IMG/VR virus record: IMGVR_UViG_3300025147_000002
Reading direction: 5' to 3' (one strand)
Length of the DNA: 64,000 nt
Source of the DNA: a virus
Part shown: one piece after another, positions 19,850 to 49,100 of the stretch
Layout of the letters: each line of letters opens with the position of its first letter
How positions within the stretch are numbered: the stretch's first letter is position 1
The notes under the pieces: model-generated
Databases searched by the model: none
What the model saw: the letters and a program-made list of their open reading frames with translations, nothing else
What the model was told of the DNA's origin: nothing
Made by a program: the position numbers and the translations under genes

Positions 19850-20914
19850 ATGGAAAGAAATACTATACCTCTTATAGGAGGACTTCATATTGGTGCACCC
19901 GAACCTATTGATGATAGACTATTAGGTGATAGTATAACTGAATATTTAGTTAGAGTTCCTAAACAACTTAGGTATATAGGTCTACCTGTTACTTTAGTTA
20001 TTAATGGAATCTCTACTAAGTATTGGTTTAAACAAGGTATTGAAGATGGAGATTTAGTATTAGATGTTACAGATGTCGGTAATCCTGCATTTACACCTAA
20101 AACTTTAACTAGTTTAGACGATACTATATTAATAACTGAATTTGATCAAACTACAGATTTATCTGCTACACCTAGATATACTAGTTTAATACCTACACCT
20201 GAACAAGTACATGGTATACCTAAAGATGCTGTATTTGATAAAGTTCTTATGGCTAAAGTAATAGATGATTTACTACATCCGTATCTAGCTCCTACATTAT
20301 ATAATTTTTATATAGATGGTGTACCTAGACTTATAGAAGTAGGTATAGATGTAAGTGGTACTAAAACATTTATGTGGTCTAAAACTAATTATGGTAATAT
20401 TAAAGTCAATAGTGGTACTATACAAAATTTAACAGATGCTTCTATAATTAAAACTGGTATTAATATCACTAGTTTAAGTAGAACATCTGAATTTGTTATT
20501 ATAGATAATACGGCTCCTTTCATTAAATCATTTAATCTTATTGGATTAGATATACATGAACAAGTTATTACAAGTAATACATTTACTATGGAATCAGTAT
20601 TTCCTATGTTCGTAGGTAGTGTAACAAACCTTAATCCTACAGAACAAGATATATCATTAATGGAACGTGTAGTTCAAACTAAAGGTGCTATTACACGATC
20701 TAATACAGTTACTTGGAAACGTCTATGTTTTGCTTATCCAGCTAATTATGGAAGTTTAATAAGTATTAAAGATACAAGTGGATTTGAGAATATTGGCGGA
20801 TTCACTAAAACAGATTTATATATATCTATCAATGGTATTAGTTGTTTGTACAATGTTTATACTCTAACTAAACCTACTACAATTGTCAATTTTAACATGT
20901 CATACATATTTTAA
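19850..20914 (+). CDS. fibre protein paralogue 1 (N-anchor + shared C-module)
   Basis: Its N-terminus is related to the N-termini of the next two genes (IPLIGG...YWF). The C-terminal ~235 aa are clearly homologous to the C-terminus of the 526-aa gene (e.g. FVGSVTNLNPTEQ...CFAYPANYGSLISIKDTSGFENIGGFTKT vs YIGSVTNAAPTEA...CFAYPTTYGDLVSITDTNGFENINGFTKT). Confidence 0.7.
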   Translation: MERNTIPLIGGLHIGAPEPIDDRLLGDSITEYLVRVPKQLRYIGLPVTLVINGISTKYWFKQGIEDGDLVLDVTDVGNPAFTPKTLTSLDDTILITEFDQTTDLSATPRYTSLIPTPEQVHGIPKDAVFDKVLMAKVIDDLLHPYLAPTLYNFYIDGVPRLIEVGIDVSGTKTFMWSKTNYGNIKVNSGTIQNLTDASIIKTGINITSLSRTSEFVIIDNTAPFIKSFNLIGLDIHEQVITSNTFTMESVFPMFVGSVTNLNPTEQDISLMERVVQTKGAITRSNTVTWKRLCFAYPANYGSLISIKDTSGFENIGGFTKTDLYISINGISCLYNVYTLTKPTTIVNFNMSYIF

Positions 20915-20926
20915 AACTATATAATC

Positions 20927-22507
20927 ATGCAAACAGGTATTCCATTAGTACTAGGTTTTCTACCTAATAGTCAAGTCCATTTAGATGCTAGATATATGAA
21001 TGGCGATGTACCTTACGCTAATACAGCAGAGGTATTTAGTTTATTACCTCTATATAGACGTAAGAAATATCTACCTGTTAATATAATGGGTGTAGATTAT
21101 TGGTTTGATACAGATACATTAGATACACTTGTACCTAAGACAAACGTAATAACTGTTCAAGAACCATTAGGTAAATCAGGTAATGATATTATATTACAAT
21201 ATGATACTAATACACTTGCTTTACTTACAGGTAAACTTAAAGTTAAAGATAATGTATTTCCTATATTAGATACTGGTGGTAAGATACCTAGTGCATATCT
21301 TCCTGGTACTACGTCGGATATTGTAGAGAAAGCTAATTACGCTGCAATGATTCTTGCAGTTGGTGCAGCAAATACATTATATGTTACTTTAGATAATAAC
21401 AAAATATATAGATGGTCTGGTACAGTATATACTGAATTACCTACATCTTTAGGATTAGGTACTAATCATGATTCAGCTGGTTATGGTGATGAATCTAGAG
21501 CAGCTTATGATCTTAGACATCAACATTTTCATGAAGGTGGTGCAATTAGTAATTTAGATGATCTAAACAGAGTATCTGGCACTAATACAGGTGATGAAAC
21601 TAAAGCATCTATTGAAGCTAAACTTACAGGTGCTATAACTTCACATACTCATGCTAGTACTAATCAAGGTGGTGTGGCTCCTATTAAGATAGTAGGCCTT
21701 GATATTATACTTGATTATGATCCTACGCAATTTAAATTAGTAGGTGGTCAACTAATACCCGTATATGTTAATGCAAGTGCTATGCCTGAAACTATTCATG
21801 GTCTTAATGCAGGTACATCATTTGCTTTACCAGGTGATACTATTAAAAGTGTACTAGATCGTTTATTATATCCTTATCAAACACCTGCTATTAATGCATT
21901 TGCTATAACTGGTTATTCACAAACTATTCCATTTGAAGTAGGTGTCAATTTAAATGGTAGTAAAACGTTTACATGGAATAGAGTTAATGGTGGTAATATT
22001 AATGCTAATTCAGGTATTATATATGATGGAGTTGCTACAGAAATTCAAACTGCTATCAATCTTACTCCGAATACACTTACTATGAATTTGGATATTCCTA
22101 ACATTACACCTATATCTAAATCTTTTAGAATAGAAGCAATTGCTACTAATGGTGCAATAGTTGTAAGTAATGACTTTAAGTTTACATCTGTATTTGCTAT
22201 GTATATTGGAAGTGTTACTAATGCAGCACCTACAGAAGCAATTGTTAAGTTGATGACTAAACGTGTACTTGCTAAAGGTAATCAATCAATAATTTATACA
22301 TTAGATTTTAAACGTTTTTGTTTTGCTTATCCTACAACATATGGTGATTTAGTTAGTATAACTGATACGAATGGTTTTGAGAATATCAATGGATTTACTA
22401 AGACTACACTTACTTTTACTACTAATGGTGTAACTCAATTATATAATATATATACTCTTACAATACCTGGTAGTCCTACTAATTTTACTGTTACTTATAA
22501 ATTTTAA
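20927..22507 (+). CDS. fibre protein paralogue 2 (N-anchor + insert + shared C-module)
   Basis: The N-terminal ~70 aa are about 50% identical to those of the 496-aa gene (GIPLVLGF..HLDARY...YWFDTDTL..LVP). The central region contains GGKIPSAYLPG, a motif common in phage tail fibres. The C-module is shared with paralogue 1. Confidence 0.7.
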   Translation: MQTGIPLVLGFLPNSQVHLDARYMNGDVPYANTAEVFSLLPLYRRKKYLPVNIMGVDYWFDTDTLDTLVPKTNVITVQEPLGKSGNDIILQYDTNTLALLTGKLKVKDNVFPILDTGGKIPSAYLPGTTSDIVEKANYAAMILAVGAANTLYVTLDNNKIYRWSGTVYTELPTSLGLGTNHDSAGYGDESRAAYDLRHQHFHEGGAISNLDDLNRVSGTNTGDETKASIEAKLTGAITSHTHASTNQGGVAPIKIVGLDIILDYDPTQFKLVGGQLIPVYVNASAMPETIHGLNAGTSFALPGDTIKSVLDRLLYPYQTPAINAFAITGYSQTIPFEVGVNLNGSKTFTWNRVNGGNINANSGIIYDGVATEIQTAINLTPNTLTMNLDIPNITPISKSFRIEAIATNGAIVVSNDFKFTSVFAMYIGSVTNAAPTEAIVKLMTKRVLAKGNQSIIYTLDFKRFCFAYPTTYGDLVSITDTNGFENINGFTKTTLTFTTNGVTQLYNIYTLTIPGSPTNFTVTYKF

Positions 22508-22510
22508 TAT

Positions 22511-24001
22511 ATGTCAGGCATTCCTATAGTTCTAGGATTTGATCCAAAAGCTCAAATTCATTTAGATACAAGGTATCAGAATAATGGAGTTCCTTATATA
22601 GATACAACGGAAGTACTTAGTGTGCTTCCTTTGTATAAACGTGCACTTCATCTTCCAGTAGATATACAAGGAACTCTTTATTGGTTCGATACAGATACAT
22701 TAAATCATTTAGTACCTATACCTGGAGTTAAAGTTATAACATCTGAAGACGGATCTATTATAGTAGTTCCTATTGAAAATGGATTTGATTTAAGTACTAG
22801 TGAAAAACGAACTATAAATATTGGTGCGGGTTTACAAGAAGGATATGGTCTATTTTATAATGGATACACTGTACGTAAACCTCATATTAATACTGATGGT
22901 TTAACTGTTGGTTATGCTATAGCTAATAGTGATTGGGCACCACTACAACAAATTCATTGGGATAATCTTATACTTAAATCTGGAGGAACTGCTCATGCTA
23001 GTGCTAAACTCAAACAATCAGGTAATACAACTTGGTTATTTAGAAGTGGTCAACCTGTAGATGTAGATTCTTTTGGATTTACAGCTGTAGGTTCTGGTAT
23101 TAGAGACGGTTCCACTGCTCTATTTAGATTTAAAAATGAATGGAATATTTGGTGGATTGCTAATCCTTTAGGATCTACTAATAATCTTGCTCAATATGCT
23201 ATAACTAATATAACCGATGATTTAGGTCTACGTAATTTTGGTATTACATCTGGTTTTTCTATTCGATTAGTAAAGAATTTTACAACTCTTACTACACAAG
23301 GTCAACGAGGTGAATATATAGGTAATGATGGTAAACATTATATAACTATACTTATTGGTGCTTATGAATATTTAACTTCAGACTTAGCAGAAACTAAATG
23401 GAGAGATGGAACGCTTATACATGTTGAATCTAATACAGATATATGGGTAGGTCTTACATCTGCTGCTGTATGTGCTTGGAATAATAATTGGAGTTACATT
23501 ACATCTGGAGATAAATCATTTATTGCTGATAAAAATAATATACTTAGTTTTAAAGGTGGAAATGGTATTAATGTGTCATCTAATATTATACCGGCAACTA
23601 TAAATGTTCCTGGTAAAGTTGAAGTAGTTATATCCAATACTAGTACTGTACCAACTGGCAGTACACCAACAGGATCAAATCCTATTGAATGGATTGATTT
23701 TACATTTAAAGATATAGTTGATTCAGCAGGAACAGAATATGTTTTAGATCTTTATGTTGCTGCTCCTTATACAATACTTGGAATAGCAATAGTGGTGAAT
23801 ACAGGAACAGCTGAAGCAACAGTTTCAATAAATAGTAATACCATAATAGGATTAACTGCAAAAGTCGCTACAGTTAATATACAATATTTTGAAGCAACAA
23901 ATAGTAATGTATCTGCACTACATGATAAAGTACATATTAGTATTGGTAATATTATAACTGCTACTTCTTTTACTGGTAAACTTATATATCAACGACTATG
24001 A
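22511..24001 (+). CDS. fibre protein paralogue 3 with diverged FISUMP-like lectin region
   Basis: Shares the N-anchor with paralogue 2. Internal segments YGLFYNGY...FGFTAVGSGIRDG...IWWIANP...GFSIRLVKN and YIGNDGKHYITILIG..YLTSDLAETKWRDG...AAVCAWNNNW parallel the FISUMP units of the next gene. Confidence 0.65.
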   Translation: MSGIPIVLGFDPKAQIHLDTRYQNNGVPYIDTTEVLSVLPLYKRALHLPVDIQGTLYWFDTDTLNHLVPIPGVKVITSEDGSIIVVPIENGFDLSTSEKRTINIGAGLQEGYGLFYNGYTVRKPHINTDGLTVGYAIANSDWAPLQQIHWDNLILKSGGTAHASAKLKQSGNTTWLFRSGQPVDVDSFGFTAVGSGIRDGSTALFRFKNEWNIWWIANPLGSTNNLAQYAITNITDDLGLRNFGITSGFSIRLVKNFTTLTTQGQRGEYIGNDGKHYITILIGAYEYLTSDLAETKWRDGTLIHVESNTDIWVGLTSAAVCAWNNNWSYITSGDKSFIADKNNILSFKGGNGINVSSNIIPATINVPGKVEVVISNTSTVPTGSTPTGSNPIEWIDFTFKDIVDSAGTEYVLDLYVAAPYTILGIAIVVNTGTAEATVSINSNTIIGLTAKVATVNIQYFEATNSNVSALHDKVHISIGNIITATSFTGKLIYQRL

Positions 24002-25281
24002 GTAGTTTAATATATATTTCTGCAAGAAAGATTATAGGTGGATATGGAAGGTTGTATAATTGGTTCTGTACGCAACCGCAAACGAAGGTTAAGTATGGAT
24101 ATTTGTATAATTGGTATGCTGCGACTGATAGTCGAAATATATCGGCGAGTAATGCACACGTTCCATCTATTGATGAGTATATGTCGTTACAGACATTTAT
24201 TGGCGGTGCGTCTCAAGGGGGTAAATTACGAGAATCCGCAATTCTATATTGGGATGCTCCAAACACGGGTGCAACAAATGAATTTGGTTTTAATTTATTT
24301 GGTGCAGGAATGCGAAACGGGTATTTTAGTGTAGGAGATTTTACCGGACTAAAAGGATTGACTAATTTATGGACATCTACTCCATATAATTCAGACTTTA
24401 GCAAAACTTTTTATTCCGACGAATCTTTTAGTGATTATTCTGCTAATCCGAATAAAGATGGTCTTTCTATTCGTTTAATTGTTGTTACTCCTATTGAGAT
24501 AGTTGGAAATTCAGCTATTTACGTAGGTAATGATCTTCGTAGATATAAATGTGTTTTTATTAATAGTGTTTGGTATCTTGCTGAAAATCTTGCAGAAACT
24601 AAATACAGAAATGGTGATCTTATTCCTAAAGTAACAGATAATACCGCTTGGGCTGCTCTTACAACAGGTGCTATGTGTGCCTATAACAATGACGAGGTAA
24701 ACGCATTTGAAACGGCAAGTATCGCTCCGGTGGGATTTCATGTGCCGACAAAGATTGAATTTGCGGATTTCAGAACGTTTTTAGGAACAAATTCAGGAGG
24801 CAAACTAAAGGAAATAGGTTTTAAATATTGGCTCGATCCTAATGTTGGTGCAACAAATGAGGTCGGATTTAATGCAAAAGGAACAGGAATAAGGCTTAAT
24901 AATACAGGGGTTTTTGGTAGGCTTAATGGCGAAGGCTCTTTGTGGTCTACGACAATCTACAATTCTACAATGTCCTATATTGGGGTGCTACAAAATATCA
25001 ACGCTGATTTCTGGGAAAATGGATATAATAATAAGACAGGATTACCGCTTCGCCTCCTAAAAGACGACTCAACATTTACCCCCGGAGATACCCTTACAGA
25101 TATAGACAGTAATACATATCCTTTAGTTAAAATAGGTAATCAGGTATGGACTGCTAGTAATTATAAATGTACTAAACTTAATGATGGTACACCTATACCT
25201 CTAATCGAAGATAATACAGTATGGGCAGCAAGAACGGAGATGGCACAATGTATATATGATAACAATATTGTAAACTTATAA
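23998..25281 (+). CDS. FISUMP (Fibrobacter succinogenes major paralogous, TIGR02145-like) repeat protein; putative glycan-binding fibre component
   Basis: Hallmarks seen: YGRLYNW / YGYLYNWYAA, HVPS..E, GGKL(R/K)E, YW...N.GATNE.GFN..G.G.R, LW(T/S)(S/T)T, G(L)(S/P)(I/L)RL(I/L). The layout is half unit + full unit + half unit. ATGA overlap with the upstream fibre gene. GC/CpG-rich from about 24040 to 25100. Confidence 0.85.
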   Translation: MSSLIYISARKIIGGYGRLYNWFCTQPQTKVKYGYLYNWYAATDSRNISASNAHVPSIDEYMSLQTFIGGASQGGKLRESAILYWDAPNTGATNEFGFNLFGAGMRNGYFSVGDFTGLKGLTNLWTSTPYNSDFSKTFYSDESFSDYSANPNKDGLSIRLIVVTPIEIVGNSAIYVGNDLRRYKCVFINSVWYLAENLAETKYRNGDLIPKVTDNTAWAALTTGAMCAYNNDEVNAFETASIAPVGFHVPTKIEFADFRTFLGTNSGGKLKEIGFKYWLDPNVGATNEVGFNAKGTGIRLNNTGVFGRLNGEGSLWSTTIYNSTMSYIGVLQNINADFWENGYNNKTGLPLRLLKDDSTFTPGDTLTDIDSNTYPLVKIGNQVWTASNYKCTKLNDGTPIPLIEDNTVWAARTEMAQCIYDNNIVNL

Positions 25282-25374
25282 CTGTAGATACAACTGTAGA
25301 TACAACTGAATATACAACTATTAACTTTAAAATAATAATTAACTTTAAAATAATAATTAACTTTAAAATAAAAA
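25282..25374. repeat. two adjacent tandem repeat arrays (3 x 12 bp, 3 x 18 bp)
   Basis: First array: ctgtagatacaa (25282-25293), ctgtagatacaa (25294-25305), ctgaatatacaa (25306-25317). Second array: ttaactttaaaataataa (25321-25338; 25339-25356) and ttaactttaaaataaaaa (25357-25374). The arrays fill the whole gap between the stop at 25281 and the ATG at 25376. Confidence 0.95.
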
Positions 25375-25375
25375 C

Positions 25376-25660
25376 ATGATATCAAATCAATTAAGTGATC
25401 TATTAGGAGAATATGGTGATTTTCCAATTAAAGGTACTGTAAAAGTTATTGCACCTGCTGGTTTATACTTTGCTTCTGCAAATGTATTTGGTGATACAAC
25501 TATGACTGCAATGGAAGTAAATGGAGTTGCTAATAATAGTGATTCATATTTTAATAAAATTATGCCTAATGGTATGTGGCATGTATTTACTAGTAGAATT
25601 ACTGCTATTACTTTATCTGGTGGTGAACTACAATGTTGGACAAAACCTATAGGAGGATAA
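25376..25660 (+). CDS. small beta-rich protein, hypothetical (94 aa)
   Basis: Clean AT-rich ORF between the two GC-rich patches. No motif recognised. Confidence 0.5.
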   Translation: MISNQLSDLLGEYGDFPIKGTVKVIAPAGLYFASANVFGDTTMTAMEVNGVANNSDSYFNKIMPNGMWHVFTSRITAITLSGGELQCWTKPIGG

Positions 25661-25662
25661 CT

Positions 25663-27303
25663 ATGTTAGGTATAACAACTATCGGTATAAAAACTGGTAT
25701 AGGAATAGTTAGACAAGGGGCACATGTGAACCTTTCGGAGCAATTCAATAACGGGAAACTTGTATTGAATTTTGACGATGGGGCAACATCTATGTACACA
25801 GATGCCCTACCTCTATTTGTCGAAAAAGGTGTTACCGCTACGATATGGGCAAATGGAATATTTCCAGATGCTAATGGAGGAACTGGCACGGCTAATTTTT
25901 GTACGTGGACGCAATTGCAGGCAATGTATGCTGCTGGCATCGACATACAATGCCACACATATTCACATATTCGATGTACCGAAAAAACAGATGGAGAAAT
26001 AGCAACTGATTTATTGCTTAATAATACTGCGTTACTCGCTTATGGAATACCAGCACCCACCTGTATGGCATGGCCAGAGGGATTATATGATGCTCGAACA
26101 AAATCAGCCGTTGCGCCATATCGCAAAATGGCGAGATGTTCAGCACCCAATTATGTTTTTACGTATCGTAGTTCTGACAAATACGCCTTAACGTCCTTTT
26201 GGCTTGATAATGGTACGGATGCAACCACAGTAACGGCAAAATCACTACTTGACGGGGCAAAAGCGAATAAGGCGGCAATATTAATGTCAGCACATGGAGT
26301 AAGCGTTGCGGGGAGTTCTGCAACCGTAAAAACATCAAGACTGGCCGAAATAATCGATTATGCGTTAAGTATTGGCGTTGATATTATTTCCGCGAAGCAA
26401 CTTGAAACTCAAATGATGCATAATGAGATATTTGTAGAACCATCTACAAATTTAACCATTACGTCAACAGGTACAGGTGCTGGTGTCGCAAATCTTGTTC
26501 TTGATGTTACAGAGGACACGACATTTACGATTGTAGGTAATGCAAGATTCTATACGGATGCAGGAGGAATAGCTAATGAATCAAATACATGGTATGTAAA
26601 GGCTGGACACGGAATCATTTATATTAAATGTAGTTCTGGTGTATCTACGATAACGGTAGGCAACAGGAAACTATACAAGATAGAATCATGGACTGCAAGT
26701 ACTAACGCTCCATCTCTGGGCGGTAACATATCGTTATTTATTAATTTAGTTATTTTATCGGTGACAGGCAATAACAACCTTTCTGGAAGTATATCAGGAT
26801 TAATAAAATTAATTAAATTATGGTGTTTAGGAAGCAATACTTTATCTGGCAGTATTGCATATCTTCTTTATTTGGCTCAGTATTGGGTTGTTGGTAGTAA
26901 TACAATAGGTGGAGATGCTTCTGGAAATAGTTTATTAACGTCATTTATTGTTGATGGGAACAGTGCAATTTCCGGTAATTCTGACAATATGACGCTTTTA
27001 CAAAGCGCAACGATTGCAAAAGGCACATTCCAATTTTTACGCACAATTACAAATAAACAACTAAGTAGCCTAACAATAGGGAATATAATTCTTGCATCTG
27101 CAAGTATTAATAAAATATTGGCAGACTTCGTGGCCAATAAAGACGAAGCAAAACCATTAACAACAAGAAATATATCATTGTTTGGTTTAGGCGGTTCAAG
27201 TGCGCCAACGGGTCAGGGATTAACGGATAAGGCGACACTTCAGGCATATCACTCTCCAAATAATGATTTAGCATATGTTGTATGGGCGGTTGGAACTCGT
27301 TAG
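25663..27303 (+). CDS. CE4 (NodB-homology) polysaccharide deacetylase fused to LRR-like repeats
   Basis: CE4 motif 1 NFDDG (nt 25768-25782), motif 2 HTYSH (nt 25954-25968), and a later AILMSAH (LxH-type motif). The C-terminal half has ~24-aa repeats with L..L.....GNN.LSGSI (nt ~26695-27045). The ATG at 25663 is preceded by AGGAGG and does not overlap the previous gene. The track ORF opens at an ATG at 25633. Confidence 0.75.
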   Translation: MLGITTIGIKTGIGIVRQGAHVNLSEQFNNGKLVLNFDDGATSMYTDALPLFVEKGVTATIWANGIFPDANGGTGTANFCTWTQLQAMYAAGIDIQCHTYSHIRCTEKTDGEIATDLLLNNTALLAYGIPAPTCMAWPEGLYDARTKSAVAPYRKMARCSAPNYVFTYRSSDKYALTSFWLDNGTDATTVTAKSLLDGAKANKAAILMSAHGVSVAGSSATVKTSRLAEIIDYALSIGVDIISAKQLETQMMHNEIFVEPSTNLTITSTGTGAGVANLVLDVTEDTTFTIVGNARFYTDAGGIANESNTWYVKAGHGIIYIKCSSGVSTITVGNRKLYKIESWTASTNAPSLGGNISLFINLVILSVTGNNNLSGSISGLIKLIKLWCLGSNTLSGSIAYLLYLAQYWVVGSNTIGGDASGNSLLTSFIVDGNSAISGNSDNMTLLQSATIAKGTFQFLRTITNKQLSSLTIGNIILASASINKILADFVANKDEAKPLTTRNISLFGLGGSSAPTGQGLTDKATLQAYHSPNNDLAYVVWAVGTR

Positions 27304-27367: not shown

Positions 27368-27463
27368 ATGAAACAAGTTATCAGACTTTATAAAAATATA
27401 GTTGCACCATCTCCTCTTCCAGATGAAGATCTTTCTCTTATTATAGCTGATGGTGGTAGTTGA
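27368..27463 (+). CDS. micro-ORF A (31 aa), paralogue of micro-ORF B
   Basis: Hand-translated: MKQVIRLYKNIVAPSPLPDEDLSLIIADGGS. It is preceded by atatctatcatttat (27331-27345) and ttattactATGaaa, both of which recur upstream of micro-ORF B. Confidence 0.35.
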   Translation: MKQVIRLYKNIVAPSPLPDEDLSLIIADGGS

Positions 27464-27574: not shown

Positions 27575-27670
27575 ATGAAAACTATTAGAATTTTTAATGA
27601 AACTCCTACTACACCTGAAGATGAAGATCTTCCTCCTATTAGAACTGGTGGTGGTGTGCCTCGTGTATGA
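27575..27670 (+). CDS. micro-ORF B (31 aa), paralogue of micro-ORF A
   Basis: Hand-translated: MKTIRIFNETPTTPEDEDLPPIRTGGGVPRV. Same leader elements (27535-27549). Its stop overlaps the ATG of the downstream 4-TM gene (ATGA at 27667-27670). Confidence 0.4.
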   Translation: MKTIRIFNETPTTPEDEDLPPIRTGGGVPRV

Positions 27671-28107
27671 ATAAATTAGTTTATAAAATAATAGATATTT
27701 TATCTATTGAGATTATTAAAGTAGTTCCTATTATAATCACTATGTGGTTACTAGTAGTAACTACTTTACTATTAAATCATGTTAAACATGCAGATTTAGA
27801 ATATTCTATACTTGGACATTCACTTATATATAATGTTAGTTGGTTATGTCTATCTATTAAATATAGATTTTGTATTTGGCATAGAGTATTAATATATAAT
27901 CTTATACTTATAAATATACTTGAATGGATTAATAATAGATTTCAAGTATTTACTAATAAAGAAGTAATATACACTATGACTGTATTACTTTGTGTAACTA
28001 TATTTATTTCATTAATACTTAAATTTAAATATGGGTGTATTAAAAGAGTTACCAATAATCATATTAAGAAAATTACTACTACATGCTATAGAAATGATAG
28101 ATACTAA
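27667..28107 (+). CDS. polytopic membrane protein (about 4 TM), hypothetical
   Basis: 146-aa ORF with four hydrophobic segments (VVPIIITMWLLVVTTLLL, SLIYNVSWLCLSI, VLIYNLILINILEWI, YTMTVLLCVTIFISLIL). Basic C-terminus. Confidence 0.55.
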   Translation: MNKLVYKIIDILSIEIIKVVPIIITMWLLVVTTLLLNHVKHADLEYSILGHSLIYNVSWLCLSIKYRFCIWHRVLIYNLILINILEWINNRFQVFTNKEVIYTMTVLLCVTIFISLILKFKYGCIKRVTNNHIKKITTTCYRNDRY

Positions 28108-28413: not shown

Positions 28414-29226
28414 ATGACATTAGGTGAATCAGCCGTAGTACCCGTATTAGGTGGAAACGGCATGGGTGGAGCAGGTTTAGGTATTGGTGGTGGTGTACTT
28501 GGAGGTCTACTTGCGGGTGGATTAGGTGGTGCGCTAGTAGGTGGATTAATGGGAAATCGTGGTGGATGGGGTGGAAATGGTTATGGTGGTGGTGCTCCAG
28601 CTGCATCAGCAGTAGCATCTGAAATTGTATTAACTCCAACACTGAATGCAATTCAAAATCAAATTAATGGGATTAGTGATACACTAAATGCTCACAACAT
28701 TGATGCAGGTTTAACATCAATTAATCAGAACATCTCCGGCACATCTCGTGATTTAGGAAGAGATGTTGCTAATCTTTCGACTGCTCAGGCGAATGGTAAT
28801 TTTGTAACACTTACTTCTATCAATGGATTAGGTCGTGATGTAGCTGCACAAGCTAACCAGAATGCACTTCAACAGCTGAATAGCTTTAATAATCTTACTA
28901 CAACTACATTACAGGGTTTTAATAGTTCTGCGATGCAGATTCAAAATGCAACTAACCAAATTATTGCACAAGGTTCTGCTAATGCTGCTGCTGTTGCTAC
29001 TGGATTTTGTAATATTAGTAAAGAATTAGCAACTTGTTGTTGCGAAGTAAAACAAATGATTCAGTCAGATGGTAATCTTACTCGTGCACTTATTAATGAT
29101 ACTAACATGCAAAATCTTAGGGATCAACTTGCAACGGCTAATGGTAAAGTTAGTAACAATGAACAGAATCAGTATTTATTAAATACTATTCTTACTCATG
29201 TTAAACCTAGTTCTACAATTGTTTAA
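28414..29226 (+). CDS. glycine-zipper / N,Q-rich protein with Cys cluster, hypothetical
   Basis: N-terminal ~65 aa: GGNGMGGAGLGIGGGVLGGLLAGGLGGALVGGLMGNRGGWGGNGYGGG. This is followed by an N/Q/A-rich helical region with an internal LGRDVA repeat and a CNISKELATCCC cluster. The gene is flanked by a promoter-like box and a strong terminator. Confidence 0.7.
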   Translation: MTLGESAVVPVLGGNGMGGAGLGIGGGVLGGLLAGGLGGALVGGLMGNRGGWGGNGYGGGAPAASAVASEIVLTPTLNAIQNQINGISDTLNAHNIDAGLTSINQNISGTSRDLGRDVANLSTAQANGNFVTLTSINGLGRDVAAQANQNALQQLNSFNNLTTTTLQGFNSSAMQIQNATNQIIAQGSANAAAVATGFCNISKELATCCCEVKQMIQSDGNLTRALINDTNMQNLRDQLATANGKVSNNEQNQYLLNTILTHVKPSSTIV

Positions 29227-43168: not shown

Positions 43169-46100
43169 ATGGATAATAGATTTAATACAGATACATCAGG
43201 TGGTCCATATAGTACCTTTCTTACTACTCCTATGCCTAAAGTAGGACTTGCTGATCTAAGTAAAACACCTATTGGAGAAAGATCTTTAATATCTGGTAGA
43301 GGTGATCAATTCAATACTTCTTTTAAAGCTGCTTATGATTCATATGATTCATATGTACATGGGGCTAATTATAAACTAGGTGGTTTAGATGAAATGCGTG
43401 CTCAGAATCAAGGCGGTTGGGAACGTACAGGTAGATCATTTGCACAATTAGGCGGTACTATACTTGGTCAAGTAATTGCAGGTAGCGGTAGTATTCTTAA
43501 ATTACTTGGTAATCCTATTGATACAGGTCAAATGTTATATGGAGATACTAGTGCTGAAAACTATGAAGATACTAAAAATGGTATTATAGGTTCTTTTGGA
43601 CATATGCTTGAAACATCTGGTATAGCTATTCAAAAAGGTATTGAAGAAGCTATGCCTATATATCAAACACAAGTTGCTCAAGAAGGTGGTTGGGGTAAGT
43701 TTGGAGATTCTAGTTGGTGGGCTGCTATGTTTCCTACTGTAGGTTCTGCTATGGCTAGTTTTGTACCTGTATTAGGTGCTATGAAAGGGCTTAATGTTGC
43801 CGCTGGATTGCTACGTGAAGCTGGTGCCATAACTGGTATTGGTCGAGGTATAGGTCTAGCTAAAGGTTTGGCAACAGTTGGAAAAGCTTTTCAAACTAGT
43901 AATGTAGCACAAGTTTTGACAGGTACTATGTTTAGCACTCACCTAGATGTTATGCAAGAAATTGCTAATCAGTATGACAGTGAACTTAAATATGGTAAAG
44001 AACAGTTAGGTATGAATGATAAGGAAGCTTTAGATTATGCTTCTAACTGGGCTGCTAGTTCATATCGTAAAGGTGTTATGGCTACATCTGTATTTGAACT
44101 TGGTCAGATGAAAGTTCTGTTAGGTTCAGGTAAATTTATGACAAGTATGGCAACTGCTAATGCCAAAAAAGCTACAAAGCAATATTTGAAAACTATATTT
44201 ACAAAAGGTGTGGCAGCAGCTGATGCTGAAATTGGTGCTATTGCTGCCAAGACTATTAAGAAAACATTTGTTAAAGAAGCTTTCAATTTAGGTAGTGTTG
44301 CTTTAGGAGAAGGTTTTCAAGAGATGGGTGTTGATGTTGCTTTAGCAGAAGGTAAACGTGAAGCTAAAATGAATGCAGGATTTGAAGATTTTAGTCCTAC
44401 AGCTATAGGTGATAGATTATCCGATTTTGCTAGTAAAGGTAAGAATTGGGATAGTTTTATTTGGGGAGCATTTGGTGGTATGCTTATGACAGGTGGTAGA
44501 AGTGCTATTGATTCTATTCTATATAAAGATACTGCTAATAAAGAATTAGATATAATTAAGAATCATCTAGATACACTTTCTAATCTTACAAAAGGTCTAG
44601 CTAGTTATGATAGTACGGCATCTACTGTAGATCAACATGGTAACAACTTTAAATTACTCTTACCGTTAATTCATAATTCTATTAAAAATGGTACATTTGA
44701 TGTTACCAATAAGTTTATAGCAGATATGTCTAAATTAAATGGTATATCTGATACTGAACTTAAAGTATTAGGATTTACTATAGACTCTATAGAAGGTGCT
44801 AAAGTTATTAAAACTGAATTAGAACGTGCTAGTAAAATATATCAAGAAGCTTTTAAAAAGAAGTTTTCAGAAGATGATACTGAAAATAAGATTACTCAAA
44901 TTAATTATGCTCATTCTAAACATTCTTTTGAATATTGGAATGACTTTGATAAGAAATATGCAGATTTAATAGCAGAACGTAGAATTGAATTAAGTAAACA
45001 AATAACTGATTTAAATAAAGATTATAGTGCTAATGAAATACTTAAAGATCATACTAAATTTGAAATAGATGATATTCAAGTTCAGATAGATGGTATGACA
45101 TCTGCCAGAAATCAAGCACAAACTAATTTAAGTAATGCTCAATCAGAACGTCTAGATTTAGTAGATCAGATTAAAAGAGTTAAAGATAAATTTACAGATA
45201 ATGCTGTAACTAATAATAATCTTGTAAATGTATCTGATTTTGAAGCAATTCGTGTAAATGCTCGTATATCTAATTTCAGACATTTAGCTACATTAGAATT
45301 AGCACTTAAAGCATTAGAAGGTGAAGTATATAATCAAACTACTCTACGTAATGGTTTAGATAAATCAATTGCTGACAGTAAATCTAAGAAGGTACTAAAA
45401 GCTACTGAATTAGCTGCATTACGAGTTCAAATAGCAAGTCTTAAAATTACTATAGAATCTACTACAAAAGATGTTGAACTTAGTAAAAAACCTGAATTAT
45501 CAACTGTAACTGATATTGAACTTAATAGATTAATGTTAGAGCGTGCTGTTATAGCTAAACAAACGGCAGAGAATGTTACAAAGTTAAAGATATATGATGA
45601 TCCTATTAAATTAGCTGAATATTTAGCTAAACAAAAAGAATTTAGAGATATAGCAACTGCCACTTATTTAACTGATTTAAAGAATCAAATGGTAAACGCT
45701 TTAACTAGTCTTAATATAGATACGATTGTTAAAGAAGCTAAAGATGCAGGTTTAGATTTATCCAAAGAAGGTATTGCACGTAAGAAACAAATAGTTATAA
45801 ATAATAATAATAATAGAGTTGTTCCACCAGTTATTAAACCTATTATTAATAATAAATTGACAGATAGTATTGGAACACCTTACACTATATCTCCAACAAG
45901 TGACATACTTACTGTAGGAATACATAATGGTACAATCATAAGTATTGGAGATACTATTATACCATATAATTCTGCTCAACCTAAACTAAAAGGTACTCCG
46001 TTAGTTGTTACTAAATTTAGTAAATCTACTAGTGGAGGTTCAATTAGTATAAGTGTACATACTGAAAATAATGTATTTAGACCAGATGATCTTATTAAAG

Positions 46101-49100
46101 AAGGTGAAGTAAATCCACTTACTGTACAATCTCCTGAAGGCATAGTCGCAGTACAAATATTAGAAAATACTGTTCTTAAAGCTGAATCAGAATTTGAAAA
46201 AGGTTTATCTGAATCTACTGTAAAAGATATACAATTTCTATTTTCAGATGTAGCTTTTCAAGATGAAATGATTAAGATATTTAGTGAAACCGATGCACTA
46301 CGTAAGAAAGATCTATTAACACGTTTATTTAAAGTTTCTTCTAAAATAGATAATACAGTAATAATTAATGAAGAAGCTTACACTAAATATATAGCTAATA
46401 GAGATTCTTTAAAATTTACAGTTGGACCTGTTATAGAACAATATTTAGCAGTTATTAGTTTAGATGCTAAATTAACAGATATATTTAGATGGGATACAAA
46501 TACTATGACTGATGGTATTGCTAAATCTTTATATGTTAGTTTTAAAGCAGGTGTATTAAAACAATTAGCTAGTTCATGGAAATATGGTACTAGTCCTAAT
46601 AATAAACATGGTAGATTTATTAATTATAATCCCGAAAGCGGTGTAATGAATGTATCATTTGATGCACGTATTCAAAGTGAAATTAATACATTAACTGATT
46701 ATATTAATCAAGGATACAATGATACTACCGATACTAAAGGTAACGTTATAGCTTCTACTATGACTGCTGAATCCATGGGTCAATTAACAGCATTATTAGA
46801 TGAATATATAGTTATTAAAAATAAACTAACAGCTTTAACTAAGATACTTCTTAGAGAAACTATAGGTAAAGATAACATATATATTGAAAATACTTTTAAT
46901 ACTTATATTGAAACTCTTAAGTTAGATTATGATAAACTTATTGCTGAAGCTGATAATAAAGCAGATAAAACTAAGTTATCACAAGAATATGATACGGTAA
47001 AGAAAGAACTTATTAAACTTAAAAATTTATCCAAAAGTTTATCAGATAGTTCAGCTAATACACTAACAGCACAAGGTCAATTTCAAGCAGGTAGTATTAC
47101 AGATTTAAATACTATATTTGATAATATTAATACATTACTTGGTAAAGAACTTAAAGATACAGCTGCATATGGTAATATCAATATTATAGTTGATGGTATT
47201 AATAAAGGATACAGTGTATTTAATAATGTAAATAATTTAAATAATAATGGTATTGAAGGTTTATACTTTACTAGATTAAAGTTTGCTTTGCAAGGTCTTA
47301 GATCTATTAGAAGTAATCCTGAATATGATGAAGTTGAAACTATAGAATCTAGTAATAATTCTGAAATACTAGATGATAGTATTCTTAGAGATATTATAAT
47401 GAATTATTCTGAAAGTCTTTCAGATAAAACAGCTGTATCTTATTTTACAGATAGTCTTAAGAATACATATTTTGCAGAAGCTGAAGTTAGTATTTCAGTA
47501 CTTCAAGATTTGATTAATACATATAAAACGTTTCATCTACATACACAAGATGATGTACCAATTACATTTGATAATATATTAACTGTACTTAGAGGTAAGA
47601 ATAAAATAGATGCTGATTTTCAGAATCAAGTTATGATAGTATATGATAGTATTAGACATATACAAGAACTGTTTCTTAATAAGAGTATGCTTACGTATAT
47701 GGCTAAACAAGTATCTATGATGGATATAGAAGATGCTGACTATTATGCCATGAAAAGTACTTTAGATGCTCTTACAACGCTTAGTAAGAATCTTGTTAAA
47801 GTACCTACTAGAGATGATTATAGTCCTATGTCTAAAGAATATACAAATTACTTTACTGAAAAAGGAGATTTGAAATGGGCTTATGTACAAAAATGGTTAG
47901 ATAGTTATGAAGGTGGTAGAGTAGATTATGAATATAAACCGGGTATTACTTTAGAAACTATATATGGTAAAGCTATTTCAGAATTAAATGAATCATTTGA
48001 TGTAGTTACTGATATGTATAAAGTAAATACTGTTGAAATAGAGGGTGTATCTTTTACTGTTTCAGAAGTATATCAAGCTGTAGCACAATTAAGTCTTAAT
48101 AGTGAAATACATATTGACACTACAGGTATTGACATGAAAGACACATCAGCTTCTTTAAATGCTTATATAATAATTAATAATAAACGATTTGTAATAGGTA
48201 GAATAAAACCTTCAGAATTACGTATAGGTGAAAAGATTGTAGATGGTACAGTTGTAAGTAATGGTATAGCTTTAACTATAATCGATCCTAAAACAGGAAC
48301 TACTACATTTAGTAATTATTTAACTAGTACTAAATTAAAATCTATAACTGATATGATAGCAGTTAAAACTTTGTTGAATCCTATTAAAGAATTTTATAAA
48401 GTATATACAGTTAATAGACAATCTAATAAACACAATGAAGTTAAATATCTTAAATTATTGGAAGATATTAAAAATGCTAGAACCACTAATCCTATAGGTG
48501 AAACATTTTATAATTGGTTACTTACTGCTACAGGTGATATAGATATAGTTAATCCTCATAAAGCATATACTGTATTATCTACTATATTTTATAGAATAGA
48601 AGACAATCTTGTAGATTCTTATAAACCTAATGGTATAGAAATATATAATAAGTTTAGAGCATATGAAGAATCATTACTTAATAATTTTAATAAAGGTAAT
48701 ATTCTTAAACAACGTATAGCAGATACAATAACACCTAATAATCAAATAGAATTAAAAATATCACATTTAGGTAGTCCATCACCTAATTTTTCAGATAAAT
48801 ATAGTGAGGCTAATAAAGTCAATGATGTTATTAAACCTAACACTATGATTAATGGGCAACCTGATGTAATGATTGTTCATACTATGAATGTAGAGCAAGA
48901 GCATGTTATATCTAATTTATCTAATGATACTACAATACCTATGTCAGTAGATGATATGAATGCTCTATTAGCTAAAGATGCGTATGTATATGCTCAAATA
49001 GCATATTATGGTAGTCAACCATCTTATATACCTCTTCGTAGTGCTACTTTAAATACATTTGGTAAGAAATCTACAGCTAGTTACAATGATCATGCTAGAG

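What the first reader, a model, noticed from the sequence alone, without database searches (positions are those of the whole stretch)
25663..27303. Fibre-module CE4 polysaccharide deacetylase fused to LRR-like repeats
The ORF carries the CE4 / NodB-homology signature in the correct order: NFDDG (Asp-Asp motif 1), HTYSH (H-S/T-x-x-H motif 2) and a later AILMSAH (LxH-type motif). The C-terminal half has roughly five 24-aa repeats of the form L..L.....GNN.LSGSI, which is an LRR-type consensus. It sits at the end of the fibre gene run, but it lacks the N-terminal anchor shared by the neighbouring fibres. Phage tailspikes that deacetylate surface polysaccharides are known, but those I can recall use SGNH-type esterase folds. 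A CE4-LRR fusion in a crAss-like fibre locus would therefore be an unusual receptor-modifying enzyme. It could matter for phage interaction with Bacteroides capsular polysaccharides. That it is virion-associated is inferred from position only.
Basis: partly seen in the sequence, partly recalled or inferred. Interest (0 to 1): 0.75.

Follow-up and report, generated by a model that had tools for sequence, protein, structure and literature searches.

The report
Phage fibre-locus CE4 deacetylase–LRR protein
A crAss-like phage encodes, at the end of its tail-fibre genes, a protein that joins a metal-dependent sugar deacetylase (CE4 fold) to a leucine-rich-repeat rod; it probably rides on the virion and strips acetyl groups from the host's surface sugars, which differs from the SGNH-type deacetylases shown to work on phage tails so far.

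Summary
Window 25663-27303 (+) is a 546-aa ORF with a strong ribosome-binding site. Residues 29-150 match Pfam Polysacc_deac_1 (E 7.9e-20). The model has a confident (beta/alpha) barrel whose best PDB matches are CE4 enzymes. The Asp-Asp, H-T-Y-S-H and late His motifs are present.

The C-terminal half is a beta-sandwich followed by an LRR solenoid (pLDDT 95). The repeat period is 21 aa, not 24. LRR profiles hit relatives but not this protein.

The window is a crAss-like phage, and the gene closes a block of modular fibre genes. The C-terminal module defines an unannotated family of 433 cluster representatives, mostly metagenomic. Its N-terminal enzyme domain is swapped among CE4, SGNH, GH16 and beta-helix. 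In the four relatives whose contigs I read, the gene sits in or just after the structural or tail genes of podo-like, sipho-like and unclassified phages.

A disordered N-terminal peptide of about 25 aa recurs across these swaps. I propose it is the virion docking element, by analogy with crAss001 gp22.

Virion attachment, activity and substrate are all inferred. CE4 domains on virions or in tail modules have precedents (HFTV1 turret, actinophage "glucosaminyl deacetylase"). I rate this a new variant of a known kind, of moderate interest.

The parts
25651..25656 (+). Shine-Dalgarno-like AGGAGG, 6 nt upstream of the ATG at 25663
   Evidence: Read directly from the sequence. It supports the 546-aa start over the in-frame ATG at 25633.
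25663..27303 (+). Complete ORF, 546 aa plus TAG stop: the CE4-LRR protein
   Evidence: ORF list. An identical 546-aa metagenomic protein, P0001, was found.
25663..25737 (+). N-terminal Gly/Ile-rich peptide, aa 1-25 (MLGITTIGIKTGIGIVRQGAHVNLS). Predicted disordered; proposed virion-docking peptide.
   Evidence: pLDDT is about 30. The '..GIxIG..[QL]G[ST]K[LV]N' form recurs in 11 relatives, directly ahead of CE4, of SGNH or of the beta-sandwich. About 47 of 155 full-length relatives carry a related GI-rich or SYWT peptide. The docking role is an inference by analogy with crAss001 gp22 residues 1-26 (PMC10172136).
25738..26436 (+). CE4 / NodB-homology deacetylase domain, aa 26-258. Candidate catalytic residues: D38 (25774-25776), D39 (25777-25779), H98 (25954-25956), H102 (25966-25968), R158 (26134-26136), H211 (26293-26295).
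   Evidence: PF01522 E 7.9e-20. NCBIfam HfsH model E 2.5e-20 over aa 27-245. AF2 pLDDT about 90. Foldseek matches CE4 structures with TM-to-target 0.72-0.77. The family profile matches PplD 6dq3 at E 5e-21.
26437..26703 (+). All-beta sandwich domain, aa 259-347, carrying the family signature T-x-T-G-T-G-A-G-V ... F-Y-T-D-A-x-G ... E-S
   Evidence: AF2 pLDDT 90-98. G270, G272, G274, F296 and Y297 are nearly invariant. There is only a weak resemblance to CBM6/CBM35 or cupin folds (probability 0.25-0.6).
26704..27090 (+). LRR-type solenoid, aa 348-476. Five clear 21-aa units lie at aa 351-455 (L..L..L.V.G.N.LSGSI), followed by a degenerate sixth unit.
   Evidence: Autocorrelation peaks at lag 21 and the units fall in register. 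In the model a short beta-strand recurs every 21 residues. All top PDB matches are LRR proteins: BRI1, BRL2, SERK2, InlJ and InlB. LRR_14 and LRR_4 hit relatives.
27091..27300 (+). C-terminal helix-containing end of the solenoid, aa 477-546 (INKILADFVANKDE ... APTGQG ... WAVGTR). It is one of three alternative C-terminal tails in the family.
   Evidence: pLDDT 95-98 in the C-terminal model. The same tail occurs in P0002-4, P0011, P0014 and P0018.
19850..25281 (+). Upstream block of four modular fibre-like genes: 19850-20914, 20927-22507, 22511-24001 and 23998-25281
   Evidence: 20927 and 22511 share a 68-aa N-terminus. 19850 and 20927 share a 250-aa C-terminal region. 22511 and 23998 carry Fib_succ_major/FISUMP domains. 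In the closest annotated relative, cr127_1, the corresponding post-capsid block encodes different, unrelated proteins.
25376..25660 (+). 94-aa ORF of unknown function immediately upstream. Whether it belongs with the target is unknown.
   Evidence: ORF list. It has no Pfam or PHROG hit. It is not conserved next to the closest homologue, P0002.

Best explanation
The gene encodes a virion-borne accessory enzyme of the tail-fibre apparatus of a crAss-like phage.

Proposed mechanism:
- A disordered N-terminal peptide of about 25 residues plugs the protein into the tail or fibre assembly (inferred).
- Next comes a metal-dependent CE4 deacetylase with a complete Asp39/His98/His102 metal triad, Asp38 as the candidate base and invariant His211 as the candidate acid. 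The residues are shown at sequence level and the fold by a confident model. The geometry was not measured.
- A beta-sandwich and a 21-aa-period LRR solenoid follow. They act as a rigid arm and/or a glycan- or protein-binding module that holds the enzyme at the cell surface (inferred).
- On contact with the host, the enzyme removes acetyl groups from a surface polysaccharide. The target is most likely N-acetyl groups of GlcNAc-type residues in capsule or exopolysaccharide, because the closest characterised relatives (HfsH, PplD, PgaB/IcaB) are de-N-acetylases. Deacetylation would change the glycan layer so that the phage can bind, move through it or expose a secondary receptor. This is what the SGNH deacetylase fibres of phages G7C and Possum do.
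For: Domain identity:
- PF01522 E 7.9e-20.
- HfsH model E 2.5e-20 over the whole domain.
- Family profile against PDB: PplD 5e-21, then BA0330/BC0361, IcaB and PgaB.
- AF2 model with pLDDT about 90 across the barrel. Foldseek matches CE4 enzymes at E 1e-7 to 1e-9. The top hit is the HFTV1 virion turret protein 8qpg.
- D38 is conserved in 32/32 related domains, D39 in 28/32, H98 in 31/32, R158 in 31/32 and H211 in 32/32. H102 is present here.

LRR: model with pLDDT 95.4 and pTM 0.89, LRR-only top PDB hits, period 21, and LRR_14/LRR_4 hits in relatives.

Phage and fibre context:
- Crassvirales terminase, portal and major capsid protein.
- The gene is last in a block of shuffled fibre-like genes.
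- It has no signal peptide (sequence), so a virion ride or host lysis is needed to reach an extracellular substrate.

Family logic:
- The C-terminal module has 433 representatives.
- The N-terminal domain is swapped among CE4 (18/75), SGNH (13/75), beta-helix, GH16 and metallophosphatase. These are the usual repertoire of phage surface-glycan enzymes.
- The four relatives whose contigs I read lie in or just after phage structural or tail genes. P0011 is just before a GH108 endolysin. P0020 follows the tape-measure and distal tail genes. P0017 is in an SU10-like prophage and has a fibre-like N-terminal extension. P0005 precedes small membrane proteins.
- Related CE4 domains sit at the C-terminus of 549-697-aa proteins in IMG/VR phage contigs. 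One of these proteins matches a 'virion structural protein' PHROG, and another lies downstream of a portal gene.
- The N-terminal peptide is conserved across the enzyme swaps.
- crAss001 fibre protein gp22 docks through residues 1-26 only (PMC10172136).
Against: - There is no proteomic or structural evidence that this protein is in the virion.
- The closest homologue (P0002, 51% identity) sits in a non-syntenic context on a short contig.
- The conserved C-terminal module also occurs in proteins with signal peptides or pilin-like N-termini. These are bacterial secreted proteins, so the module is not itself a virion marker.
- In the P0017 prophage the gene follows the lysis genes.
- LRR proteins are usually monomers, whereas classical fibres are trimers.
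- The canonical MT3 Arg is absent (A-W-P-E-G). The role I assign to R158 is inferred from strand order only.
- 15 of 32 related domains lack the second metal His, so part of the family may not be catalytic.
- The metal-site geometry could not be measured, because model coordinates are not exposed.
- De-N- versus de-O-acetylation cannot be told from sequence.
Confidence: 0.55

Rival explanations
1. The protein is a soluble, non-virion enzyme made late in infection. It acts either inside the cell, on polysaccharide precursors, or after lysis, on debris and neighbouring cells. It would deacetylate capsule or exopolysaccharide to free progeny from glycan traps, destroy receptors or block superinfection.
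For: Virion association is inferred only from gene position. The gene is the last one before an AT-rich gap and a 146-aa multi-pass membrane ORF that could be a holin. In the P0017 prophage the relative follows the holin-like and SLT genes. The closest full-domain model, HfsH, belongs to a polysaccharide-biosynthesis pathway. Bacterial relatives with signal peptides are free secreted proteins.
Against: The protein has no signal peptide. The conserved disordered N-terminal peptide that persists across enzyme swaps has no obvious use in a soluble enzyme. P0017 carries a long fibre-like N-terminal extension. Related CE4 domains are fused to virion-structural-like N-terminal parts.
Confidence: 0.2
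2. The CE4 domain is a catalytically silent glycan-binding module, a pseudo-enzyme. The whole protein is then a receptor-binding fibre that recognises acetylated sugars without removing the acetyl groups.
For: 15 of 32 related CE4 domains lack the second metal-binding His. CE4 pseudo-enzymes exist: BA3943 is among the structural matches. The canonical MT3 Arg and the MT4 Asp are not recognisable.
Against: This particular protein keeps D38, D39, H98, H102 and H211. The active enzymes PplD, PgaB and IcaB also lack the MT3 Arg and MT4 (PMC8807736). Its paralogous slot in the family is filled by bona fide hydrolase folds such as SGNH and GH16.
Confidence: 0.12
3. The enzyme is a peptidoglycan-directed deacetylase that modifies the cell wall during genome delivery or lysis. 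It does not act on capsule or O-antigen.
For: Many CE4 structural neighbours are peptidoglycan GlcNAc/MurNAc deacetylases: PgdA, PdaA, PdaC and Bc1960.
Against: The best sequence-level relatives are exopolysaccharide or wall-polysaccharide de-N-acetylases, not PgdA-type enzymes (HfsH, PplD, IcaB, PgaB). Deacetylating peptidoglycan does not open it; established knowledge of PgdA is that it generally protects the wall from lysozyme. The alternative heads in the family (GH16, beta-helix, SGNH) point to surface glycans.
Confidence: 0.06

Closest known systems
SGNH-type deacetylating tail fibres or tailspikes of phages (E. coli phage G7C gp63.1; Pectobacterium phage Possum gp66; PMC9569702)
   Same: The proposed job is the same: a virion-attached esterase that deacetylates a host surface polysaccharide to allow adsorption. 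The gene lies in the fibre locus. In the present family an SGNH domain occupies exactly the slot that CE4 occupies here (13 of 75 relatives).
   Different: The catalytic fold and chemistry differ: a metal-dependent CE4 (beta/alpha) barrel instead of a Ser-His SGNH hydrolase. The rest of the protein is a beta-sandwich plus LRR solenoid, not a trimeric beta-helix or fibre. No activity or virion data exist for this protein.
HFTV1 turret head protein gp31 (PDB 8qpg; PMC12494034)
   Same: It is the only solved virion protein with a CE4-like Zn site. It is the top Foldseek PDB hit of the full model (E 3.3e-9) and is hit by the family profile. It is also proposed to modify host glycans on contact.
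   Different: It comes from an archaeal virus and sits on capsid turrets, not in a tail-fibre locus. Its CE4 domain is C-terminal, after a galactose-binding-like domain and a stalk. It has no LRR. Sequence identity is about 16%.
PplD / PgaB / IcaB / HfsH group of CE4 de-N-acetylases of wall and exopolysaccharides
   Same: These are the best sequence relatives (PplD 5e-21 with the family profile; HfsH model 2.5e-20 over aa 27-245). They share the A-[YW]-P-x-G variant of motif 3, which lacks the Arg.
   Different: The motif order here is canonical (MT1, MT2, MT3, late His), not circularly permuted as in PplD. The HfsH equivalog cut-off is missed by a wide margin (73 against 400 bits). Those enzymes are cellular, not viral, and are not fused to an LRR.
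Actinobacteriophage 'glucosaminyl deacetylase', 'esterase' and 'minor tail protein' genes with a CE4 fold (e.g. Arthrobacter phage EvePickles gp30; BFVD entries from phages Qui, Mudcat, Adaia and Atraxa; Lactococcus phage phi7 BppU-N protein; Bacillus phage G gp673)
   Same: They have a CE4 fold in phage proteins. In EvePickles the gene is the last one after the minor tail genes.
   Different: Similarity is only structural or very weak in sequence (tblastn E 0.02). They have no LRR module, their hosts are Gram-positive, and they are likewise uncharacterised experimentally as far as I could find.
Plant-type and bacterial LRR proteins (BRI1/SERK ectodomains, Listeria internalins)
   Same: The repeat motif L..L..L.V.G.N.LSGSI resembles the plant-specific L.L..N.LSG.IP consensus (my own knowledge of LRR classes). 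These proteins are the top structural matches of the C-terminal model.
   Different: The period is 21 aa rather than 24. The Foldseek E-values are weak (1.5e-3 or worse). No LRR Pfam model reaches significance on this protein.

Membership tests
Carbohydrate esterase family 4 / NodB homology (Pfam PF01522) | Profile match above the curated threshold | tested here: met
   71.5 bits against a cut-off of 23.1, E 7.9e-20, aa 29-150.
Carbohydrate esterase family 4 / NodB homology (Pfam PF01522) | Distorted (beta/alpha) barrel fold | tested here: met
   The AF2 model has pLDDT about 90 over aa 30-255, with alternating strands and helices. Foldseek TM-to-target is 0.72-0.77 for 2cc0, 5lgc and 7fbw over about 225 columns. 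This is a model, not a solved structure.
Carbohydrate esterase family 4 / NodB homology (Pfam PF01522) | Motif 1, Asp-Asp (catalytic base plus metal ligand) | tested here: met
   F37-D38-D39-G40. D38 is conserved in 32/32 and D39 in 28/32 related domains. It aligns to the TFDD motif of PplD and of the Xyl-CE4 domain.
Carbohydrate esterase family 4 / NodB homology (Pfam PF01522) | Motif 2, H-[ST]-x-x-H (two metal-binding His) | tested here: met
   H98-T-Y-S-H102. It aligns to the HTVNH of PplD. H102 is present in only 17/32 relatives.
Carbohydrate esterase family 4 / NodB homology (Pfam PF01522) | Motif 3, R-x-P-Y, with the Arg holding the catalytic Asp | tested here: inconclusive
   The sequence here is A136-W-P-E-G140, with no Arg. 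The active enzymes PplD, PgaB and IcaB have the same variant and supply the Arg from elsewhere (PMC8807736). R158 (31/32 conserved) is a candidate substitute, but this was not verified in 3D.
Carbohydrate esterase family 4 / NodB homology (Pfam PF01522) | Motif 5, catalytic His at the end of a late beta-strand | tested here: met
   H211 follows strand aa 205-210 and is invariant in 32/32. The literal L-x-H spelling is not kept (S-A-H).
Carbohydrate esterase family 4 / NodB homology (Pfam PF01522) | Asp/His/His converging on one metal site; measurable deacetylase activity | not testable with these tools
HfsH holdfast oligosaccharide deacetylase (NCBIfam NF050820, equivalog) | Score above the equivalog cut-off | tested here: not met
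   73.2 bits against a cut-off of 400. It is a relative, not an orthologue.
Leucine-rich repeat proteins | Tandem 20-30-aa units with an L..L.L..N.L-type core | tested here: met
   Five 21-aa units lie in register at aa 351-455, and the autocorrelation peaks at lag 21 only. Across the family, G.N[TSN] motifs are spaced 21 aa apart 240 times and 22 aa apart 82 times.
Leucine-rich repeat proteins | Significant match to an LRR profile | tested here: not met
   No LRR family hits this protein at E<=1. Relatives do match: LRR_14 in 28/75 (best 9.9e-16) and LRR_4 in 24/75.
Leucine-rich repeat proteins | Solenoid with one parallel beta-strand per repeat | tested here: met
   The C-terminal model (pLDDT 95.4, pTM 0.89) has a short strand every 21 residues. 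The top PDB matches are BRI1, BRL2, SERK2, InlJ and InlB, with probability about 1 but E-values of only 1.5e-3 to 0.1.
Phage tail-fibre / tailspike surface-glycan enzymes (functional class) | Physical presence on the virion | not testable with these tools
   The only evidence is positional and comparative.
Phage tail-fibre / tailspike surface-glycan enzymes (functional class) | N-terminal virion-attachment element | tested here: inconclusive
   The protein lacks the 68-aa N-terminus shared by ORFs 20927 and 22511. It does have a disordered 25-aa peptide that is conserved across family members with different enzyme heads. The docking role is inferred by analogy with crAss001 gp22 residues 1-26.
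Phage tail-fibre / tailspike surface-glycan enzymes (functional class) | Gene located in the tail or fibre module | tested here: met
   It is the last gene of the fibre-like block 19850-27303 in a Crassvirales-type structural region. The four relatives whose contigs I read lie in or just after the structural or tail genes of other phages.
SGNH-type phage deacetylases (G7C gp63.1-like) | SGNH hydrolase fold with a Ser-His catalytic centre | tested here: not met
   The catalytic domain is CE4. SGNH occurs in paralogous family members, not in this protein.

The most novel reading that the evidence does not exclude
The protein belongs to a previously undescribed, widespread class of modular phage fibre proteins built on an LRR scaffold rather than a trimeric beta-helix or fibre.

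The core has three parts: a docking peptide of about 25 aa, a signature beta-sandwich and a 21-aa plant-like LRR solenoid, which ends in one of three alternative tails. Enzyme 'heads' (CE4, SGNH, GH16, beta-helix, metallophosphatase) are inserted into this core as cassettes.

The system moves between crAss-like, podo-like and sipho-like phages and into bacterial secreted proteins. On this reading, the window protein would be the first CE4 de-N-acetylase shown to work from a bacteriophage tail, and LRRs would become a new receptor-binding scaffold in phages.
Probability: 0.3. Interest if true: 0.75.

Novelty: new variant of a known kind. Interest (0 to 1): 0.55.

Why it matters
crAss-like phages are among the most abundant viruses of the gut. 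Their hosts are wrapped in variable, heavily acetylated capsules, and how these phages get through that layer is largely unknown.

A tail-borne CE4 deacetylase would add a second, metal-dependent chemistry to the SGNH esterases known on phage tails. De-N-acetylation would also change glycan charge, which de-O-acetylation does not.

The family-level pattern is a conserved peptide, beta-sandwich and LRR chassis with interchangeable carbohydrate-active heads. It offers a compact system for studying how phages re-tool host range. It also provides a set of small, probably monomeric glycan-targeting enzymes that could be tested on Bacteroidota capsules and biofilms.

None of the 50,697 GenBank phage records searched contains a detectable sequence homologue at E<=1e-5. 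The family is therefore currently invisible to annotation.

Tried and rejected
- tblastn of the protein against 50,697 GenBank phage records found nothing at E<=1e-5. At E<=1 it found only three distinct weak CE4 hits, in five records.
- The PHROGs search gave only a weak match of the CE4 part to a 'minor head protein' family (phrog_28468, E 1.8e-4). This is too weak to assign a location in the virion.
- A word-indexed search with the CE4 domain alone returned a single new protein, so the domain is divergent.
- The search for related loci failed with the 21-sequence alignment because it had no conserved stretch. With the single protein it found no relatives in IMG/VR. Only the 4-sequence alignment worked.
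- The scan of GTDB species genomes found only relatives at 22-25% identity, in Proteobacteria MAGs: four Gammaproteobacteria, one unclassified Pseudomonadota and one deltaproteobacterium. It gave no clue to the host and no close prophage copy.
- I looked for synteny around the closest homologue, P0002. Its neighbouring genes are unrelated to the window's 94-aa and 427-aa ORFs. The idea of a conserved partner or chaperone gene was dropped.
- I compared the window fibre ORF 20927 with the 789-aa protein that follows the capsid genes in cr127_1 and found no similarity.
- I considered a signal peptide or lipoprotein for the window protein. I rejected it by eye from the sequence, which has no charged n-region followed by a long hydrophobic h-region.
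- I considered a circularly permuted PplD/PgaB-type topology. I rejected it because the invariant catalytic His lies C-terminal to MT1-MT3, and Foldseek aligns about 225 columns to canonical CE4 structures.
- Literature searches for CE4 or deacetylases in Crassvirales and for LRR-based phage receptor-binding proteins found nothing relevant in the held library.
- The promoter and terminator scan around the gene was not above background for promoters, and it gave no terminator directly after the ORF.
Full report
**1. What is at the coordinates**

The mechanical ORF runs 25633-27303 on the + strand. An AGGAGG box lies at 25651-25656, 6 nt upstream. An identical 546-aa protein was called from that start in a JGI metagenome (P0001). 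The two closest homologues align from that Met.

**2. The CE4 domain is real**

- Pfam Polysacc_deac_1 matches aa 29-150 with E 7.9e-20, at 71.5 bits against a curated cut-off of 23.1.
- NCBIfam's HfsH model covers the whole domain (aa 27-245, E 2.5e-20). The score is far below the equivalog cut-off (73 against 400 bits), so this is a relative and not an orthologue.
- An AlphaFold2 model built on 21 homologues gives pLDDT of about 90 for aa 30-255, with alternating strands and helices.
- Foldseek against the PDB returns only CE4 enzymes at E 1e-7 to 1e-9, with TM-to-target of 0.72-0.77 for the acetyl-xylan esterases 2cc0 and 7fbw and the deacetylase 5lgc.
- The top hit is the turret head protein of the archaeal tailed virus HFTV1 (8qpg).
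- A profile of 21 related CE4 domains finds PplD of S. pyogenes best (6dq3, E 5e-21), followed by BA0330/BC0361, IcaB and PgaB.

Conservation across 32 related domains:

| Residue | Conserved in |
|---|---|
| D38 | 32/32 |
| D39 | 28/32 |
| H98 | 31/32 |
| G140 | 32/32 |
| R158 | 31/32 |
| H211 | 32/32 |
| H102 (second metal His) | 17/32, present in the window protein |

Motif 3 reads A-W-P-E-G and lacks the canonical Arg. The active de-N-acetylases PplD, PgaB and IcaB have the same variant and supply the Arg from another position (PMC8807736).

Unlike those enzymes, the motif order here is canonical, with the invariant His after motif 3. I suggest that R158, at the end of the fifth strand, replaces the motif-3 Arg. 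This is an inference from strand order, not a measurement, because the tools do not return model coordinates.

**3. The C-terminal half**

The repeats exist, but their period is 21 aa. A BLOSUM autocorrelation of aa 345-475 is positive only at lag 21. Five units fall in register at aa 351-455, with a degenerate sixth unit after them. Across the family, successive G-x-N-[TSN] motifs are 21 aa apart 240 times and 22 aa apart 82 times.

No Pfam LRR model reaches E<=1 on this protein. Among 75 relatives, however, LRR_14 hits 28 and LRR_4 hits 24.

A second AlphaFold2 model of aa 255-546, built on 55 sequences, is very confident (pLDDT 95.4, pTM 0.89). It shows three parts:
- an all-beta sandwich at aa 259-347;
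- a solenoid with one short strand per 21 residues;
- a helix-containing end.

Its best PDB matches are all LRR proteins (BRI1, BRL2, SERK2, a plant ice-binding LRR protein, InlJ, InlB). The probability is about 1, but the E-values are weak, at 1.5e-3 or worse. The sandwich resembles CBM6, CBM35 and cupin folds only weakly. I therefore accept 'LRR-type solenoid' and leave the sandwich unassigned.

**4. Genomic setting**

The window is a crAss-like phage:
- PHROG terminase, portal and major-head families hit ORFs 8446, 10862 and 14633.
- The capsid protein is 55% identical to that of Crassvirales phage cr127_1 (Crevaviridae) and 37-39% identical to other crAss-like phages.
- Giant ORFs of 2590 and 4269 aa lie downstream.

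Between the capsid-proximal genes and the target lie four fibre-like genes built from shuffled modules:
- ORFs 20927 and 22511 share a 68-aa N-terminus (63% identity, E 1e-26).
- ORFs 19850 and 20927 share a 250-aa C-terminal region (43% identity).
- ORFs 22511 and 23998 carry Fib_succ_major/FISUMP domains.

In cr127_1 the genes that follow the capsid block in the same order encode different proteins. The largest of them, at 789 aa, shows no similarity to ORF 20927. This is what one expects of a hypervariable fibre locus.

The target is the last gene of the block. An AT-rich gap of 360 nt follows it, and then a 146-aa multi-pass membrane ORF. In crAss001 the fibre cluster gp22-26 is likewise followed by lysis genes.

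**5. The family**

The exhaustive HMMER search with aa 255-546 found 433 cluster representatives at E<=1e-3 and 277 at E<=1e-10. Nearly all are unnamed metagenomic proteins.

Pfam scans of 75 of them show that the domain in front of the conserved sandwich-LRR module is interchangeable:

| N-terminal domain | Members (of 75) |
|---|---|
| CE4 (Polysacc_deac_1) | 18 |
| SGNH (Lipase_GDSL_2) | 13 |
| Right-handed beta-helix | 4 |
| Metallophosphatase | 2 |
| GH16 | 1 |
| Laminin-G-like | 1 |

Short members of 250-340 aa have no enzyme domain at all. In total, 31 of the 161 sequences then in hand carry the same CE4 domain across its full ~230 aa. The CE4-LRR fusion is therefore a recurrent architecture and not a one-off.

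The four longer contigs I read are phage contigs or prophages:
- P0011 (GH16 head) lies just before a GH108 endolysin in a 52-kb phage.
- P0020 follows the tape-measure and distal tail genes of a siphovirus-like contig.
- P0017 (SGNH head, with a 350-aa fibre-like N-terminal extension) is in an SU10-like prophage.
- P0005 (CE4 head) precedes small membrane proteins in a 45.7-kb phage contig.

In IMG/VR, related CE4 domains form the C-terminus of 549-697-aa proteins. The N-terminal part of one matches a 'virion structural protein' PHROG, and another lies downstream of a portal gene.

Some members instead carry signal peptides or type-IV-pilin-like N-termini. The sandwich-LRR module is therefore a general extracellular module and not a virion-specific one.

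**6. The N-terminal peptide**

Residues 1-25 are predicted to be disordered (pLDDT about 30). They are not random. A Gly/Ile-rich start followed by [QL]-G-[ST]-K-[LV]-N occurs in 11 family members. It comes immediately before a CE4 domain, before an SGNH domain or directly before the sandwich.

A related 'MPGIGIGI...SSYWT' form occurs in many more members. About 47 of 155 full-length members carry one form or the other.

A peptide that stays in place while the catalytic domain behind it is exchanged behaves like an attachment element. In the crAss001 virion, fibre protein gp22 is held in its docking hub by residues 1-26 alone, and further fibre proteins attach to gp22 (PMC10172136).

I therefore propose that this peptide is the anchor. 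This would explain why the protein can do without the 68-aa N-terminus of its neighbours. The proposal is an inference. There is a faint resemblance to the first residues of ORFs 20927 and 22511 (M-x-G-I-P-[IL]-V-L-G-F), which is only a lead.

**7. Most likely mechanism and rivals**

My best reading (confidence 0.55) is a virion-borne accessory enzyme of the fibre apparatus:
- the peptide docks the protein to the tail;
- the CE4 domain removes acetyl groups from a host surface polysaccharide;
- the sandwich-LRR arm positions or targets the enzyme.

De-N-acetylation of GlcNAc-type residues is the more likely chemistry, because HfsH, PplD, PgaB and IcaB are the nearest characterised relatives. 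De-O-acetylation cannot be excluded, since acetyl-xylan esterases are equally good structural matches.

The rivals are:
- a soluble late enzyme that is not packaged (0.2);
- a catalytically silent glycan-binding head (0.12), kept in play because nearly half of the family lacks the second metal His;
- a peptidoglycan-directed deacetylase (0.06).

**8. Comparison with what is known, and novelty**

CE4 on a virion has one structural precedent, the HFTV1 turret head protein. Its authors found no bacteriophage homologue for it (PMC12494034).

Annotated but uncharacterised CE4-fold proteins exist in phage tail regions. Examples are Arthrobacter phage EvePickles gp30, a 'glucosaminyl deacetylase' that is the last gene after the minor tail proteins. 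BFVD adds Arthrobacter minor tail proteins, a Lactococcus phi7 BppU-N protein and Bacillus phage G gp673.

I found no paper that links CE4 or deacetylases to Crassvirales, and none that describes LRR-based phage receptor-binding proteins. No GenBank phage record has a sequence homologue at E<=1e-5.

The finding is therefore a real and correctly read domain fusion. It is a new variant of a known kind of system, namely phage surface-glycan-modifying fibre enzymes. The added, previously undescribed element is the modular peptide-sandwich-LRR chassis.

I score interest at 0.55. This is not higher because activity, substrate, host and virion location are all untested. It is not lower because the family is sizeable, unannotated and directly testable.

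Noticed in passing
window 27368-27463 and 27575-27670 (+): Two tandem paralogous mini-ORFs of 31 aa lie in the AT-rich gap after the target gene: MKQVIRLYKNIVAPSPLPDEDLSLIIADGGS and MKTIRIFNETPTTPEDEDLPPIRTGGGVPRV. Each follows a similar upstream block (TA.A.TTATTACTATGAAA). Direct repeats of 37 nt (86% identity) and 19 nt link the two units. The second mini-ORF ends overlapping the ATG of ORF 27667.
   Followed up: partly
window 19850-25281 (+): The fibre-like genes are built from shuffled modules. ORFs 20927 and 22511 share a 68-aa N-terminus (63% identity). ORFs 19850 and 20927 share a 250-aa C-terminal region (43% identity). ORFs 22511 and 23998 overlap by 4 nt (ATGA). Both carry Fib_succ_major/FISUMP domains: ORF 23998 gives three Pfam stretches (two with NCBIfam), and ORF 22511 gives only sub-threshold matches.
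   Followed up: partly
Family-wide, at the position of window aa 102 (nt 25966-25968): The second metal-binding His of CE4 motif 2 is replaced, mostly by Gly, in 15 of 32 related CE4 domains (for example Q-C-H-G-Y-T-G). The Cys before the first His is conserved in 23 of 32. These members either bind metal differently or are pseudo-enzymes.
   Followed up: partly
window 28414-29226 (+): A 270-aa ORF has a Gly-rich, hydrophobic N-terminal third (GGxGxG runs) and an Asn/Gln-rich remainder with a C-C-C-E motif. Its only matches are to PHROGs of unknown function (phrog_9288, phrog_8119).
   Followed up: no
window 27667-28107 (+): A 146-aa ORF with several hydrophobic segments lies directly after the fibre block. 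It could be a holin-like membrane protein, as in crAss001, where lysis genes follow the fibre cluster. It has no family hit.
   Followed up: no
L001 1-609 (phage contig carrying P0005): The gene immediately upstream of the CE4-LRR homologue P0005 encodes a different kind of LRR, a BspA-like repeat (CNSL..L.LP.LTS.G..CF.GC). That phage therefore carries two unrelated LRR proteins side by side.
   Followed up: no
window 43169-50941 and 50943-63752 (+): Two giant ORFs of 2590 and 4269 aa lie at the 3' end of the window. Their size and position fit the virion-packaged cargo or RNA-polymerase proteins of crAss-like phages. They were not analysed here.
   Followed up: no
Family C-termini (P0006, P0007, P0009, P0012, P0015, P0019, P0021, P0022): There are three mutually exclusive C-terminal tails after the LRR. 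One ends ...S-M-A-D-T-x-Q-G-G-I-W-G-x-F ... G-D-G-T-G-F-P-A-G-F-G-[DN]-W-[YW]-R-[ST]. Another ends ...G-S-N-A-x-R-T ... T-N. The window type ends ...A-P-T-G-Q-G ... W-T-V-x-T-R. Their functions are unknown.
   Followed up: no
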